DNA from: Moraxella nasovis
GTDB taxonomy: Bacteria; Pseudomonadota; Gammaproteobacteria; Pseudomonadales; Moraxellaceae
Length of the DNA: 32,000 bases
Direction of reading: 5' to 3'
Assembly: GCF_022701215.1 (NCBI RefSeq)
Contig: NZ_CP089976.1
Coordinates: forward strand, 1,200,001-1,232,000
The notes beneath the pieces were generated by a model that worked only from the letters and a program-made list of their open reading frames with translations, was not told the origin of the DNA and ran no database searches. The position numbers and the translations under genes are program-made. Shown piece after piece: positions 4,863 through 7,220 of this stretch (position 1 is its first letter; each line of letters starts with the position of its first letter).

Positions 4863-7220
4863 ATGTCTTTTCATAAAGCCAGTGCGGTAACATTACTTGC
4901 ACTTAGTATCGTTGCTTGTAGCAGTAATAACGGTTCGCCAGTCAAGCCAAAACCAAACCCTACCATTCAACCTACCCAAACTAATACCCAAAAAGCCGAA
5001 GCCGAAAAGAAAGCTGCCGAAGAAGCCGCTCGTAAAAAAGCGGAAGAAGAGCGTCTAGCAAAAGAAAAGGCAGAAGCTGAAGCCGAAGCTAAAGCAGAAG
5101 CGGAACGCCTAGCAAAAGAAAAAGCTGAAAGAGAAGCAGAAGAAAAACGTAAAGCCGAAGAAGCTGCCGCAAAAGCCAAAGCAGAAGCAGAAGCTAAAGA
5201 AAAAGCACGCCTAGAAGCTGAGCGTTTAGCCAAAGAAAAAGCCGAAGCCGAAAAGAAAGCCGCTGAAGAAGCCGCTCGTAAAAAAGCGGAAGAAGAGCGT
5301 CTAGCCAAAGAAAAGGCAGAAGCCGAAGCCAAGGCAGAAGCAGAACGCCTAGCAAAAGAAAAAGCCGAAGCAGAACGCCTAGCAAAAGAAAAAGCTGAAA
5401 GAGAAGCAGAAGAAAAACGTATCGCCGCTGTTAAGGCAGACTTAGTCAAGAAAGCCAAAGATGCAGGTCTTAATGACGCTTATGCACAGCAATTTGCTGA
5501 TGATAATGTCGATACCGCTCAAAGCAACCTTGACAATGCCTTAACACAAACCATCACCGATGCAGCAAATGCCGAAAAAGGTCAGGATTATTCTACGCAA
5601 GGACTAAGTGAGAATCGTGGTGGGGTGGGTACTTCTTACGAGAATTATACTTCTATCTCAAATGGTGTTGTTAATAGAGTTAATAGAACCGTCCGTAGTC
5701 AGTCTATCGACTATGTTTATAACCAAGATTATTCCGTTGTTACCGCATCAGGTCAAATCAAAGAAGTTGATGATCATTGGACGGGTCGTAAGTCCGATGA
5801 GTCTTATATTAACATCAATAAAGTTGCAGGTCTTGAGACCCAAGACAGCCACGTCCCAAGCGTAGGGCGTGCTGCTTATACAGGTAAGGCATTCTCCATT
5901 TTAAAAGATGCAGCGAATTTTGAGTATCTGATTGACTTTGATAAGCGCAAAGGTTCTGGTAATATCACAGGTTGGGAATCTGCACTTGGAAGAACCACGC
6001 TTCAAGAAAGCGATTTAACTAAAATTGAGCTGAATGGCAAACAAGTAACAGGCGTAACAGGCAATGTTGCCGATGGCGATTATATCACAGGTGATTATAC
6101 GCTTGGCTTATTCGGTCCGAATGCCGAAGAAGTTGCTGGTAAAGCTAATATTAACAACTATACAGTTGGTTTCGGCGGTAAGAAAGATGCTGCAACCTTA
6201 GCCAAGATTGAAGCCGAAGAAGCTCGTATCGCAGAAGAAGCTCGTATCGCTGCCATCAAAGAAGACTTAACCCAAAAAGCGACAGACGCAGGTCTGACCG
6301 AAGCTCGTATCCAAGCTTATGTAGAAGCAAATGCAAATAACACCGCAGAACAGGCAAATGAAGCCTTGATCGTCGCTGTTAATAAACTTGCCGAAGATAA
6401 AGCTGCATTACTTGAACAGGCGCAAACAGTCGGTCTAGACGAAAACTTTGCCAATCAATACGCCACCAATAATGTAGATACAGCCGCCGATAATCTAAAA
6501 CAGGCACTAGAAGCAACCGCACAAGAACAAGCCAAGGCTGAAAAAGCTAAATCGGAGTTATATCCTGCGGTGGATTTGACTGCGTATCAACCCGATGCTA
6601 ATAGAGTACAATATCAGTCGCCTAATTTTGAGAAGATTGATGAAGAGAGTAGAATAACTCAGTTCCAAGGTTCTCGTTATATTTACCAGCTGCCATATTC
6701 TATCGTTGTAAAAACAACAAATGAGTTGGACGTTCGTAATGACGTTGATTTTACCAACGGTCAGGATAGTCGTGTTGATTTTGACATTACAGGCTTTGCC
6801 ACGACCGAATCTGCACTGCCAACTGAAGGGAAGGCTGTCTATACTGGTAAATCAATAAATACGACTGGAGAGGTAGCTACTTTAGCTTATAATGTAGATT
6901 TTGGTAATCGTGTGGGCTCTGGTCGTATTGTTGGTTATACTCAATATGGTATTATCAATCTAAATGAAGCCAGCATTACAAAAATCAACTTAAAAGGTAA
7001 AGATGTATTGGGTATTGCTGGTGATGCTGTTGTAAGCAAACCTTATAGTTTGTTTAAAGGTGTGAACGGGAAGTATAAGCTTGGCTTCTTTGGTCCAGAA
7101 GCACAAGAGATTGCAGGCTCTGCCGAATTTAACTATTATTCTGAAGATGGTAAGTATCTAAACAAAGATAAGAAAGTTGAAATCGGCTTCGGCGGTACTC
7201 GTGGCGACATCAAAAAATAA
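4863..7220 (+). CDS. Surface lipoprotein with Glu/Lys/Ala-rich helical stalk and two TbpB-type (handle plus 8-stranded barrel) modules; predicted Slam/T11SS cargo
   Basis: GGAG lies 6 nt before the ATG. The signal peptide and lipobox are LLALSIVAC (Cys19, Ser at +2). aa 44-188 are almost entirely A/E/K/R. The TbpB/fHbp-type signature set occurs twice: AAYTGKAF..DFDKRKGSGNITG..LGLFGPNAEEVAGKA..VGFGGKK and AVYTGKSI..DFGNRVGSGRIVG..LGFFGPEAQEIAGSA..IGFGGTR. Confidence 0.85.
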   Translation: MSFHKASAVTLLALSIVACSSNNGSPVKPKPNPTIQPTQTNTQKAEAEKKAAEEAARKKAEEERLAKEKAEAEAEAKAEAERLAKEKAEREAEEKRKAEEAAAKAKAEAEAKEKARLEAERLAKEKAEAEKKAAEEAARKKAEEERLAKEKAEAEAKAEAERLAKEKAEAERLAKEKAEREAEEKRIAAVKADLVKKAKDAGLNDAYAQQFADDNVDTAQSNLDNALTQTITDAANAEKGQDYSTQGLSENRGGVGTSYENYTSISNGVVNRVNRTVRSQSIDYVYNQDYSVVTASGQIKEVDDHWTGRKSDESYININKVAGLETQDSHVPSVGRAAYTGKAFSILKDAANFEYLIDFDKRKGSGNITGWESALGRTTLQESDLTKIELNGKQVTGVTGNVADGDYITGDYTLGLFGPNAEEVAGKANINNYTVGFGGKKDAATLAKIEAEEARIAEEARIAAIKEDLTQKATDAGLTEARIQAYVEANANNTAEQANEALIVAVNKLAEDKAALLEQAQTVGLDENFANQYATNNVDTAADNLKQALEATAQEQAKAEKAKSELYPAVDLTAYQPDANRVQYQSPNFEKIDEESRITQFQGSRYIYQLPYSIVVKTTNELDVRNDVDFTNGQDSRVDFDITGFATTESALPTEGKAVYTGKSINTTGEVATLAYNVDFGNRVGSGRIVGYTQYGIINLNEASITKINLKGKDVLGIAGDAVVSKPYSLFKGVNGKYKLGFFGPEAQEIAGSAEFNYYSEDGKYLNKDKKVEIGFGGTRGDIKK
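4992..5420 (+). repeat. In-frame long direct repeats inside the lipoprotein gene (two copies of about 160-180 nt, built from 30-nt AERLAKEKAE units)
   Basis: Block 4992-5150 (KAEAEKKAAEEAARKKAEEERLAKEKAEAE..EREAEEKR) recurs at 5238-5420 with near-identical DNA plus one extra 30-nt unit. Confidence 0.9.
6216..6251 (+). repeat. Perfect-protein 18-nt tandem duplication (EEARIA x2) in the inter-barrel linker
   Basis: gaagaagctcgtatcgca followed by gaagaagctcgtatcgct. Confidence 0.9.

What the first reader, a model, noticed from the sequence alone, without database searches (positions are those of the whole stretch)
4863..7220. Cargo architecture: lipid anchor, ~145-aa Glu/Lys/Arg/Ala helical stalk, then two tandem handle-plus-barrel modules, each preceded by DAGL-type helical motifs
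Seen in the sequence:
- aa 44-188 are essentially only A/E/K/R/L, in patterns such as AEAEKKAAEEAARKKAEEERLAKEKAE. This is the composition of ER/K single alpha-helix or TolA-domain-II-like rods.
- Two paralogous modules follow, at roughly aa 281-441 and 600-780. Both share YxY..YS[IV]V, A[AV]YTGK, DF..[KR].GSG.I.G, LG[LF]FGP.A.E[VI]AG and [VI]GFGG.
- A helical motif of about 30 aa occurs three times: DAGLNDAYAQQFADDNVDTAQSNLDNAL, DAGLTEARIQAYVEANANNTAEQANEAL and TVGLDENFANQYATNNVDTAADNLKQAL.
Inference: this is an internal duplication of a ligand-binding unit mounted on a long rigid spacer that could project it beyond LOS or capsule. If the stalk is fully helical at about 0.15 nm per residue, it would span on the order of 20 nm. 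TbpB is also bilobed, but I know of no TbpB-like protein with this stalk-plus-helical-module arrangement.
Basis: partly seen in the sequence, partly recalled or inferred. Interest (0 to 1): 0.7.

Follow-up and report, generated by a model that had tools for sequence, protein, structure and literature searches.

The report
Stalked two-lobed Slam surface lipoprotein
This Moraxella nasovis gene encodes a surface lipoprotein with two factor-H-binding-protein-like lobes on a long charged helical stalk, exported by the Slam gene next door; it is an uncharacterised two-lobed variant of a stalked lipoprotein class that is already described.

Summary
The ORF at 4863-7220 encodes a 785-aa lipoprotein (Cys19). 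Residues 44-188 consist only of A/E/K/R/L plus one Ile. Two paralogous modules follow (32% identity, E 3e-28), and a ~55-aa helical module occurs three times.

AlphaFold2 (pLDDT 82.7) predicts a long helix, then two lobes, each a beta-sheet handle plus an 8-stranded barrel. Helical bundles separate the lobes. Foldseek matches fHbp best (5e-13), then TbpB/LbpB. The stalk looks like an ER/K single alpha-helix: opposite-charge pairs at i/i+4 are enriched (z 8.6) and there is no heptad core.

A Slam (T11SS) gene lies directly downstream here and in 13 of 15 related loci.

The architecture is not unprecedented. Single-lobed relatives with the same kind of stalk and module are common in Pasteurellaceae and Moraxellaceae. 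They include the A. pleuropneumoniae antigen APJL_1740 and belong to the published "Pls-like" T11SS cargo class, one member of which showed T11SS-dependent export. In relatives, stalk length differs between strains by whole repeat units.

The new elements are the two-lobed stalked combination and the helical module, which matches no Pfam, PDB-sequence or fold family. The ligand is unknown.

The parts
4863..4919 (+). Type II (lipoprotein) signal peptide, aa 1-19. The lipobox is I-V-A-C; Cys19 is the lipidated residue and Ser is at +2.
   Evidence: Translation. The signal peptide is conserved in family members, and 19 of its first 20 residues are identical in the M. bovoculi-type relative P0052.
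4920..4991 (+). Pro/Thr/Gln/Asn-rich tether, aa 20-43 (SSNNGSPVKPKPNPTIQPTQTNTQ), predicted disordered.
   Evidence: pLDDT is below 50 for residues 1-46. Sequence.
4992..5426 (+). Glu/Lys/Arg/Ala helical stalk, aa 44-188. It resembles an ER/K single alpha-helix. It contains a diverged internal duplication spaced 246 nt apart.
   Evidence: Composition. Opposite-charge pairs at i/i+4: 61 observed versus 26.8 in shuffles, z 8.6. Strong hydrophobes fill 0.15 of a/d positions, versus 0.78-0.85 in coiled-coil controls. AF2 predicts helix at 42-142 and 150-200. DNA repeat 4990-5099 versus 5236-5345 is 93% identical.
5415..5582 (+). Helical 'AGL' module 1, aa 185-240. Its first helix continues directly from the stalk. 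The layout is helix, turn, short helix, turn, helix.
   Evidence: Module HMM 63.8 bits. AF2 helices ..-200, 205-214 and 220-239 with pLDDT 90-94.
5595..6185 (+). Lobe 1: a 4-stranded beta handle (aa 245-325) plus an 8-stranded barrel (aa 326-441). It ends in VGFGGKKD.
   Evidence: Pfam FHBP_C at 330-428. AF2 strands. Foldseek matches to fHbp.
6186..6557 (+). Helical linker between the lobes, aa 442-565. It holds AGL modules 2 and 3, which share one long helix (five helices in all).
   Evidence: Module HMM hits at 460-513 and 507-562. A separate AF2 model has pLDDT 94.2 and pTM 0.77. All 21 two-lobed family sequences examined have two modules at this position.
6558..7220 (+). Lobe 2: handle (aa ~566-645) plus an 8-stranded barrel (aa 646-785), then the stop codon. 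It ends in IGFGGTRGDIKK-COOH. This C-terminal barrel is presumed to be the part Slam recognises.
   Evidence: NCBIfam slam_lipo at 643-780, 96.2 bits against a cutoff of 80. Pfam TbpB_B_D at 653-779, below cutoff. AF2 strands. The C-terminal tail motif is present in 82 of 168 relatives.
7291..8709 (+). Slam (surface lipoprotein assembly modulator, a type 11 secretion outer-membrane protein), 472 aa. This is the presumed translocon for the lipoprotein.
   Evidence: Pfam SlipAM 7e-60 and TPR_Slam 6e-15. A Slam homologue lies directly downstream of the lipoprotein gene in 13 of 15 related loci.
4736..4744 (+). G9 homopolymer in the conserved upstream leader, 119-127 nt before the ATG. It may be a regulatory or phase-variable tract. 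Its connection to the lipoprotein system is only a suggestion.
   Evidence: It is the only G or C run of 8 or more in the window. The same G9 with the same flanks sits upstream of the 57%-identical homologue in L004.

Best explanation
The gene encodes a Slam (type 11 secretion)-dependent surface lipoprotein of Moraxella nasovis.

Proposed pathway (inferred from the family):
- Sec exports the protein, which is lipidated at Cys19 and carried to the outer membrane by Lol.
- The Slam protein encoded immediately downstream translocates it to the cell surface. Slam most likely recognises the C-terminal 8-stranded barrel.

On the surface the protein stays anchored by its N-terminal lipid. Its parts, from the membrane outward, are:
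- a ~24-residue disordered tether;
- a ~145-residue Glu/Lys/Arg/Ala helix that behaves as a single alpha-helix spacer, about 20 nm long if continuous;
- one three-helix 'AGL' module;
- an fHbp-like lobe (handle plus barrel);
- a rigid two-module helical linker;
- a second fHbp-like lobe.

The stalk and the AGL modules are interchangeable spacer elements of variable length. Relatives carry 0-187 residues of A/E/K repeats and 0-9 modules, and strains differ by whole repeat units. The spacers therefore set how far from the membrane the lobes sit.

The variable beta-sheet handles are the most likely binding surfaces for a ligand that is still unknown.

Shown here: the sequence anatomy, the predicted folds, the gene pairing with Slam, and the stalk variation in relatives.
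Inferred: Slam dependence, surface exposure, a monomeric rigid helix, and ligand binding.
For: - Lipobox and composition.
- FHBP_C twice, and NCBIfam slam_lipo at 96.2 bits against a cutoff of 80.
- The AF2 full-length model has pLDDT 82.7 and shows two units of 4-stranded handle plus 8-stranded barrel, with helices elsewhere.
- Foldseek best matches are fHbp (E 5e-13, TM on target 0.55-0.72), then TbpB/LbpB over about 600 aligned columns.
- Slam lies downstream in the window and in 13 of 15 related loci.
- Stalk: i/i+4 charge pairing z 8.6 with no 3.5-residue periodicity; a/d occupancy 0.15.
- Module counts: always 2 between the lobes and 1-4 before lobe 1; up to 9 in P0036.
- Length differences within clusters at 90% identity or more fall only in the stalk repeats. 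A. pleuropneumoniae proteins are 417, 441, 449 and 457 aa.
- Handles are the most variable parts (31% identity to relatives) and barrels the least (51-55%).
- The protein is homologous to APJL_1740-type stalked lipoproteins (32% identity, E 1e-25).
- Published precedent: T11SS-dependent surface exposure of stalked Pls (PMC12282271); Slam translocates unfolded SLPs and is proposed to recognise a C-terminal specificity motif (PMC9090332).
Against: - There is no experimental data on this protein or on any two-lobed relative.
- The AF2 monomer model cannot tell a single helix from an oligomeric bundle. Stalk confidence is only moderate (pLDDT 70-82) and dips below 50 at residues 132-152, so a kink or hinge is possible.
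- The ligand is unknown. The fHbp equivalog model scores 92.5 against a cutoff of 200.
- Homologues occur in Psychrobacter strains. Some of these are free-living marine isolates (my own knowledge for TAE2020), so binding to a mammalian host factor cannot be assumed.
- H. parahaemolyticus Pls was largely released into the supernatant (PMC12282271), so stable anchoring is not guaranteed.
Confidence: 0.75

Rival explanations
1. The stalk is not a monomeric single alpha-helix. It oligomerises into a dimeric or trimeric Ala-rich coiled coil, as in Lpp or UspA-type stalks, so the protein is displayed as a multivalent bundle.
For: - The region is one-third alanine, with a Leu every 10-34 residues.
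- H. parahaemolyticus Pls ran at about twice its calculated mass on SDS-PAGE. Its authors listed a dimer among the possible explanations (PMC12282271).
- A monomer AF2 prediction cannot exclude oligomers.
Against: - Strong hydrophobes occupy only 0.15 of a/d positions, versus 0.78-0.85 in Lpp and GCN4 controls. Occupancy including Ala equals the shuffled expectation, 0.57 versus 0.59.
- There is no power at period 3.5.
- 61% of residues are charged and i/i+4 pairing is strongly favoured (z 8.6), which is the SAH signature.
Confidence: 0.12
2. The protein is a nutrient-capture co-receptor of the TbpB/LbpB/HpuA type. It would take iron, haem or another metal from a host carrier and pass it to a TonB-dependent transporter.
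For: - The bilobed handle-barrel layout is that of TbpB and LbpB, and Foldseek aligns about 600 columns to them at E ~1e-10.
- The host bacterium colonises the sheep nose (my own knowledge; M. nasovis identified).
Against: - No TonB-dependent receptor gene lies next to it or anywhere in the 32-kb window.
- Pfam TbpB_B_D scores below its gathering cutoff, 22.8 versus 26.
- The best fold and sequence matches are to fHbp.
- TbpB and LbpB lobes pack directly against each other, whereas here a ~120-residue helical rod separates them.
Confidence: 0.08
3. The helical repeat regions are the functional part: an anti-adhesive or shielding polyampholyte brush, or a shed Pls-like biofilm modulator. The lobes would serve mainly as the export tag for Slam.
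For: - In the T11SS literature the C-terminal barrel is the targeting domain and the N-terminal regions are the effectors. Pls was released from cells when its T11SS was present (PMC12282271).
- Relatives invest heavily in repeats, with up to 187 residues of stalk or 9 modules attached to one small lobe.
Against: - Export needs only one barrel. Keeping two complete lobes, with two modules always between them, across a family that has diverged to about 40% identity argues that the lobes have their own function.
- Stalk sequence and length are the least conserved features.
Confidence: 0.1
4. It is a TolA-like, periplasm-spanning 'colicin import membrane protein', as several relatives are annotated.
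For: - NCBIfam gives weak TolA hits over the stalk, at 22-23 bits.
- Relatives in A. pleuropneumoniae and G. parasuis carry this name.
Against: - The TolA scores are far below their cutoffs (22.4 versus 59.45; 22.6 versus 213) and cover only the low-complexity helix.
- The N-terminus is a lipobox rather than a TolA transmembrane anchor. The C-terminus is an fHbp-type barrel rather than TolA domain III.
- The gene is paired with Slam, not with tolQR or pal.
Confidence: 0.01

Closest known systems
'Pls-like' T11SS/Slam cargo lipoproteins: H. parahaemolyticus Pls with TepS (Grossman et al. 2025, PMC12282271) and A. pleuropneumoniae APJL_1740 'TolA2' (PMC7012816)
   Same: - Lipobox, then a long charged A/E/K(R) alpha-helical repeat region, then a beta handle and a C-terminal fHbp-type 8-stranded barrel, with a cognate Slam/T11SS gene.
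- The window protein aligns to the A. pleuropneumoniae protein P0056 at 32% identity over module plus lobe, E 1e-25. I equate P0056 with APJL_1740 because the strain, the name and the EAEAKAKA repeats all match.
- AGL modules are present in these relatives too.
   Different: - Those proteins have one lobe; this one has two, separated by a rigid two-module helical linker.
- The stalk here is built from diverged ER/K-type segments rather than near-perfect short tandem repeats.
Neisseria meningitidis factor H binding protein (fHbp, GNA1870)
   Same: - It is the best fold match for each lobe (Foldseek E 5e-13, 21-28% identity).
- Pfam FHBP_C is found twice.
- It is a Slam1-dependent lipoprotein.
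   Different: - fHbp is a single lobe of about 255 aa on a short tether.
- The fHbp equivalog model scores 92.5 against a cutoff of 200.
- Factor H binding was not tested and cannot be assumed.
TbpB / LbpB (bilobed Slam-dependent co-receptors)
   Same: - Two tandem handle-plus-barrel lobes on a lipid anchor, with the C-lobe barrel serving as the export domain.
- Foldseek E ~1e-10 over about 600 columns.
   Different: - There is no adjacent TonB-dependent receptor.
- The lobes are separated by a ~120-residue helical rod instead of being packed together.
- A ~145-residue helical stalk replaces the short anchor peptide.
- Pfam TbpB_B_D scores below its cutoff.
'Psychrobacter surface proteins' with 2-3 handle-barrel pairs (architecture class in PMC12282271)
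   Same: They are multi-lobed T11SS cargo in Moraxellaceae. The closest named relatives of the window protein come from Psychrobacter and M. osloensis.
   Different: The published class is described as having N-terminal Pro-Thr-Asp repeats and long disordered loops. This family instead has helical A/E/K repeats and AGL helical modules. I could not check whether the two sets overlap.
ER/K single alpha-helix (SAH) domains (myosin-type and CAF-1 KER-type) and Periscope proteins (Whelan et al. 2021, PMC8201768)
   Same: - SAH: the composition and the i/i+4 salt-bridge pattern match, and a hydrophobic core is absent.
- Periscope: a repeat-encoded stalk varies in length between strains, changing how far a terminal binding domain projects.
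   Different: - SAH domains are mostly known from eukaryotic intracellular proteins.
- Periscope proteins are Gram-positive wall-anchored proteins with beta-rich repeat rods such as SHIRT domains.
- Here the rod is alpha-helical and the anchor is an outer-membrane lipid.

Membership tests
Slam/T11SS-dependent surface lipoprotein (NCBIfam NF041636 slam_lipo; TbpB-like SLPs) | N-terminal type II signal peptide with a lipobox cysteine | tested here: met
   MSFHKASAVTLLALSIVAC, Cys19
Slam/T11SS-dependent surface lipoprotein (NCBIfam NF041636 slam_lipo; TbpB-like SLPs) | [quoted passage not shown] | tested here: met
   AF2 strands at 657-780 (eight) and 583-644 (handle), pLDDT mostly above 85. slam_lipo scores 96.2 bits against a cutoff of 80. 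FHBP_C found.
Slam/T11SS-dependent surface lipoprotein (NCBIfam NF041636 slam_lipo; TbpB-like SLPs) | Genetic linkage to a Slam (DUF560/SlipAM) outer-membrane protein | tested here: met
   Slam ORF at 7291-8709, starting 71 nt after the lipoprotein's stop codon. Slam is directly downstream in 13 of 15 related loci.
Slam/T11SS-dependent surface lipoprotein (NCBIfam NF041636 slam_lipo; TbpB-like SLPs) | Surface display that requires Slam | not testable with these tools
   Requires co-expression with flow cytometry or protease shaving.
'Pls-like' T11SS cargo (PMC12282271) | Lipoprotein with a long, charged alpha-helical repeat region (EEARKA-type) ahead of the handle and barrel | tested here: met
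   Residues 44-188 include AAEEAARKKAEEERLAKEKAE and are predicted helical. The protein is homologous to the A. pleuropneumoniae member.
'Pls-like' T11SS cargo (PMC12282271) | A single handle-barrel unit, as in the tested and depicted members | tested here: not met
   There are two lobes. Among 119 N-complete relatives, 105 have one barrel and 11 have two.
Factor H binding protein (NCBIfam NF041466 equivalog) | Whole-protein score above the curated cutoff, and a single-lobe protein of about 255-280 aa | tested here: not met
   92.5 bits against a cutoff of 200; the protein is 785 aa with two lobes.
Factor H binding protein (NCBIfam NF041466 equivalog) | fHbp fold (N-terminal beta domain plus C-terminal 8-stranded barrel) | tested here: met
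   Foldseek E 5e-13, TM on target 0.55-0.72.
Factor H binding protein (NCBIfam NF041466 equivalog) | Binds complement factor H | not testable with these tools
   A binding assay with ovine or human factor H is needed.
TbpB/LbpB co-receptors | Bilobed handle-barrel architecture | tested here: met
   Two lobes. Foldseek aligns about 600 columns to TbpB/LbpB at E ~1e-10, but TM is only 0.17-0.28 because the lobes are arranged differently.
TbpB/LbpB co-receptors | Pfam TbpB_B_D above the gathering score, and an adjacent TonB-dependent receptor gene | tested here: not met
   TbpB_B_D scores 22.8 against 26. There is no TBDT gene in the window.
ER/K single alpha-helix (SAH) | High E/K/R content with enriched i to i+4 opposite-charge pairs and no heptad hydrophobic core | tested here: met
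   61% of residues are charged. 61 favourable i/i+4 pairs versus 26.8 in shuffles, z 8.6. a/d occupancy 0.15 versus 0.78-0.85 in coiled-coil controls.
ER/K single alpha-helix (SAH) | Stable, monomeric, extended helix in solution | not testable with these tools
   Only a monomer AF2 model is available: helix at 42-142 and 150-200, pLDDT 70-82 with a dip at 132-152. CD, AUC and SAXS are needed.
TolA (colicin import protein) | N-terminal transmembrane anchor, C-terminal domain III, and a score above the curated cutoffs | tested here: not met
   The protein has a lipobox instead of a transmembrane helix. TolA models score 22.4 and 22.6 bits against cutoffs of 59.45 and 213. The C-terminus is an fHbp-type barrel.
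GA module / three-helix albumin-binding domains (considered for the AGL module) | Detectable sequence or profile homology to GA modules | tested here: not met
No Pfam hit at E up to 10. Foldseek gives no PDB match below E 0.7.
Periscope-type variable-length stalk proteins | In-frame variation in repeat number between strains that changes stalk length | tested here: inconclusive
   Shown for relatives: A. pleuropneumoniae 417/441/449/457 aa, a metagenomic cluster 371-511 aa, and a cluster that includes an M. bovoculi protein, 443 versus 459 aa (both metagenome-derived), with all differences inside the stalk. Only one sequence of the M. nasovis gene was available, so this could not be tested for this gene.

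The most novel reading that the evidence does not exclude
Slam-dependent lipoproteins of Moraxellaceae, Pasteurellaceae and Neisseriaceae share an undescribed 'stalk toolkit'. It consists of ER/K-type single alpha-helices and a new ~55-residue AGL helical module that stacks into rods through shared helices.

On this reading, recombination between repeats changes the number of units and so tunes the height at which fHbp-like lobes are displayed. That would be a Gram-negative, alpha-helical counterpart of the Gram-positive Periscope proteins.

In this gene a second lobe is held at a fixed distance from the first, which would allow ligands to be engaged at two heights. Expression may also be switched by a conserved G9 tract in the leader.
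Probability: 0.3. Interest if true: 0.6.

Novelty: new variant of a known kind. Interest (0 to 1): 0.4.

Why it matters
Slam-dependent lipoproteins such as TbpB, LbpB, fHbp and HpuA are leading vaccine antigens and host-interaction factors.

This gene shows that the fHbp-type lobe can be duplicated and mounted on modular helical spacers. In relatives the spacer length changes between strains. If height above the membrane controls ligand access or antibody accessibility, the stalk is a variable that vaccine design and serology should account for. The A. pleuropneumoniae relative was tested as an antigen only after its repeat region had been cut off.

The AGL module is a candidate new domain family. 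It would be a compact, rod-forming helical unit of possible use in protein engineering.

None of this overturns current understanding. It extends a class that was catalogued bioinformatically in 2025.

Tried and rejected
Hypotheses rejected:
- GA-module homology for the AGL motif. The shared 'K-x-AG[IL]-[ST]' turn looked suggestive, but hhalign gave probabilities of 1.8% and 0.1%.
- TolA identity. The hits rest on composition only and fall far below the cutoffs.

Searches for a known relative of the AGL module, all negative:
- Pfam on isolated modules gave only noise, E 0.001 or higher.
- A PDB sequence-profile search gave only a marginal Lactobacillus S-layer protein hit (E 0.046), over 31 residues.
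- Foldseek of the helical linker against the PDB gave no hit with E below 0.7. The top hits were engineered fused Protein A repeats; Embp ranked 31st.
- A profile search with the 56-residue module returned only four short fragments. Two were Acinetobacter lipoprotein N-termini.

Tools and look-ups that gave nothing:
- A single-protein scan of genome contigs found nothing. The alignment-based scan found three loci.
- Exact-sequence look-ups of the lipoprotein and its Slam failed. The organism was identified from two neighbouring proteins instead.
- A pattern scan of metagenome contigs for the G9 leader found no match, so variation in G-tract length could not be assessed.

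
Full report
**What is there**

The window comes from Moraxella nasovis or a very close relative. Two neighbouring proteins match M. 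nasovis RefSeq entries exactly.

The ORF at 4863-7220 (+) encodes 785 aa and starts 9 nt after a GGAG. It opens with a lipoprotein signal peptide, MSFHKASAVTLLALSIVAC, with Cys19 in the lipobox. A Pro/Thr/Gln-rich tether follows at aa 20-43.

Residues 44-188 contain only Ala 48, Glu 46, Lys 30, Arg 13, Leu 7 and Ile 1.

The two paralogous modules are real. Residues 272-441 and 596-785 align at 32% identity, E 3e-28, and every quoted motif occurs in both. The three helical motifs align without gaps at 36-43% identity. A family-derived HMM finds exactly three copies, at 185-240, 460-513 and 507-562, scoring 53-64 bits each.

**Domain identity and fold**

- Pfam finds FHBP_C twice (E 3.6e-41). 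TbpB_B_D is detected but is below its cutoff.
- NCBIfam 'Slam-dependent surface lipoprotein' scores 96.2 bits, above its cutoff of 80.
- The fHbp equivalog model reaches only 92.5 bits against a cutoff of 200.
- TolA models score about 22 bits, far below their cutoffs, and match only the low-complexity helix.

The full-length AlphaFold2 model was built on a 21-sequence alignment and has mean pLDDT 82.7. It predicts:
- helices at 42-142 and 150-200, with pLDDT 70-82 and a dip at 132-152;
- a helix-turn-helix-turn-helix module ending at residue 239;
- a four-stranded handle at 247-323 and eight barrel strands at 336-441;
- five helices at 443-562;
- a second handle and eight more barrel strands at 583-780.

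Foldseek against the PDB gives meningococcal fHbp as the best match (E 5e-13, TM on target 0.55-0.72). TbpB and LbpB follow at about 1e-10 over roughly 600 aligned columns. Each module is therefore an fHbp-like handle plus 8-stranded barrel, and the protein is bilobed like TbpB.

**The stalk**

- 61% of its residues are charged.
- Opposite charges at i and i+4 occur 61 times, against 26.8 ± 4.0 in shuffles (z 8.6). Pairs at i+3, i+5 and i+7 are not enriched.
- There is no 3.5-residue hydrophobic periodicity.
- In the best heptad register, strong hydrophobes fill only 15% of a/d positions, against 78-85% in Lpp and GCN4 controls. Counting Ala gives the same value as a shuffled sequence.

These are the sequence hallmarks of an ER/K single alpha-helix, not of a canonical coiled coil. 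Whether the helix is monomeric and rigid cannot be settled by computation. If it is one continuous helix, 145 residues would span about 20 nm.

At the DNA level the stalk contains a diverged internal duplication. Positions 4990-5099 and 5236-5345 are 93% identical, and aa 44-73 equal aa 126-155.

**The helical 'AGL' module**

A separate model of residues 438-568 is very confident (pLDDT 94.2, pTM 0.77). It shows two three-helix units that share one long central helix.

The module matches no known family:
- no Pfam family at E up to 10;
- no significant PDB sequence hit (best E 0.046, a Lactobacillus S-layer protein over 31 residues);
- no Foldseek PDB match better than E 0.7. The top hits were engineered helix-fused Protein A repeats, and Embp ranked 31st.

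I tested a resemblance to GA modules that I recalled from memory. hhalign rejected it, with probability 1.8%.

**Context and family**

A Slam gene lies 71 nt downstream, at 7291-8709 (SlipAM 7e-60 plus TPR_Slam). The same gene pair occurs in 13 of 15 related loci from Psychrobacter, a Neisseria MAG and metagenomes. No TonB-dependent receptor gene is present in the window.

Twenty full-coverage two-lobed homologues (38-60% identity) exist in Psychrobacter, M. osloensis and metagenomes. Those that carry a name are called only 'factor H binding family protein' or 'factor H binding protein domain-containing protein'. All have two modules between the lobes and one to four before lobe 1. Their A/E/K repeat tracts range from absent to over 100 residues.

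An exhaustive profile search found 559 relatives at E 0.001 or below. Among the 119 N-complete lipoproteins examined:
- 105 have one barrel and 11 have two;
- about 30 of the single-barrel proteins carry A/E/K stalks of 20-187 residues;
- module counts range from 0 to 9.

The named members come from Actinobacillus pleuropneumoniae, Bibersteinia, Glaesserella, Mannheimia, Necropsobacter and M. bovoculi.

**Comparison with what is known**

The A. pleuropneumoniae member P0056 comes from strain JL03, is annotated 'colicin import membrane protein' and has EAEAKAKA repeats. This matches the published description of APJL_1740/TolA2, an immunoreactive lipoprotein that gave 42% protection in mice. Its repeat region was removed before testing (PMC7012816). 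The window protein aligns to P0056 at 32% identity over module plus lobe.

Grossman et al. 2025 (PMC12282271) define 'Pls-like' T11SS cargo as lipoproteins with a long EEARKA-type alpha-helical repeat region, a handle and a C-terminal barrel. They showed that surface exposure and release of H. parahaemolyticus Pls depend on its T11SS, TepS. They also list multi-barrel 'Psychrobacter surface proteins'.

The stalk-plus-lobe design is therefore already catalogued, and one member has been tested experimentally. What has not been described is:
- the two-lobed stalked combination with a rigid helical linker between the lobes;
- the AGL module as a distinct domain.

**Stalk variability**

Within clusters at 90% identity or more, length differences fall only in the stalk and come in whole repeat units:
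- A. pleuropneumoniae proteins are 417, 441, 449 and 457 aa;
- one metagenomic cluster runs from 371 to 511 aa;
- two metagenome-derived proteins in the cluster that includes an M. bovoculi entry are 443 and 459 aa.

It also parallels the Gram-positive 'Periscope' concept (PMC8201768).

Across the family the handles are the most variable parts (31% identity to the window protein) and the barrels the least (51-55%). This fits handles acting as exposed binding or antigenic surfaces.

**Mechanism**

Shown here: the lipobox, the predicted folds, the Slam pairing and the spacer variability.

Inferred from the family (PMC5449769, PMC9090332, PMC12282271):
- lipidation, Lol transport, and Slam-mediated translocation of the unfolded chain, with recognition of the C-terminal barrel;
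- the tail GFGGTRGDIKK-COOH as part of that signal. It is shared by 82 of 168 relatives, whereas lobe 1 ends in GFGGKKD;
- display of both lobes at a distance set by the helical spacers.

The ligand is unknown. Homologues in non-host-associated Psychrobacter argue against assuming factor H.

**Verdict**

This is a new two-lobed variant of a known class of stalked Slam-dependent lipoproteins, and interest is moderate.

Noticed in passing
window 4736-4744 (leader 4730-4765; second conserved block 4818-4845); L004 305-313: A G9 homopolymer lies 119-127 nt upstream of the lipoprotein's ATG and is the only G or C run of 8 or more in the 32 kb. The same G9 with the same flanks, ATTGTTGGGGGGGGGCGA[C/T]GCCTTTGCTAACTG, sits upstream of a homologue whose protein is only 57% identical. 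A conserved C-rich block, AAGACATCG..CCCCTTGATAATCA, lies just before the RBS and could pair with the G tract. This may be a phase-variable or structured regulatory leader.
   Followed up: partly
window 4990-5099 versus 5236-5345: A 110-nt direct repeat, 93% identical and spaced 246 nt apart, lies inside the stalk-coding region (aa 44-73 = aa 126-155). It marks a fairly recent segmental duplication and is a likely substrate for recombination that changes stalk length.
   Followed up: partly
window 4967-5458 (- strand): A 163-aa antisense ORF rich in Ala, Ser, Phe and Arg overlaps the stalk region. It is the mirror image of the GAA/GCA/AAA codon repeats and is almost certainly not a gene.
   Followed up: no
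window 6163-6185 versus 7182-7217 (ends of lobes 1 and 2): Lobe 1 ends in VGFGGKKD, while the C-terminal lobe ends in IGFGGTRGDIKK-COOH. The tail G-[FL]-G-G-T-R-G-[ED]-I-x-K at the extreme C-terminus occurs in 82 of 168 relatives; the others stop at GFGGKR. It is a candidate for the C-terminal Slam 'specificity motif'.
   Followed up: partly
relatives P0004, P0181, P0055, P0056: Database names are misleading. Relatives are labelled 'colicin import membrane protein', 'colicin transporter' or TolA because of the stalk composition. Two are attributed to Listeria innocua and Mesomycoplasma ovipneumoniae, which probably reflects contaminated assemblies, since these are Gram-negative Slam lipoproteins.
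   Followed up: no
L001 1-270; L002 about 5500-5910: In the Psychrobacter homologues, long (AAEKA)n-coding repeats run into contig ends or runs of N. Many database entries for this family are therefore truncated at the N-terminus, and stalk lengths are underestimated.
   Followed up: no
P0030, P0032: Acinetobacter contigs, including A. baumannii, carry lipoprotein N-termini with the same AGL module (IEANRVALVAKAKAAGLTDAQAAAYADANKE), cut off at the contig ends. The module family therefore extends to Acinetobacter.
   Followed up: no
window 13939-22472 (- strand): A run of catabolic genes: aldehyde dehydrogenase-like, MFS transporter, ornithine cyclodeaminase/mu-crystallin, HGLS 2-oxoadipate dioxygenase/decarboxylase, class III aminotransferase and a dicarboxylate symporter, followed by a LysR regulator at 22632-23531. 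It looks like an amino-acid (possibly lysine) degradation cluster and is unrelated to the finding.
   Followed up: no
window 23624-23696 and 23821-23893 (- strand): Two tRNA genes (Rfam RF00005, 57.8 and 67.2 bits) lie between the LysR regulator gene and the glutamyl/glutaminyl-tRNA synthetase gene.
   Followed up: no
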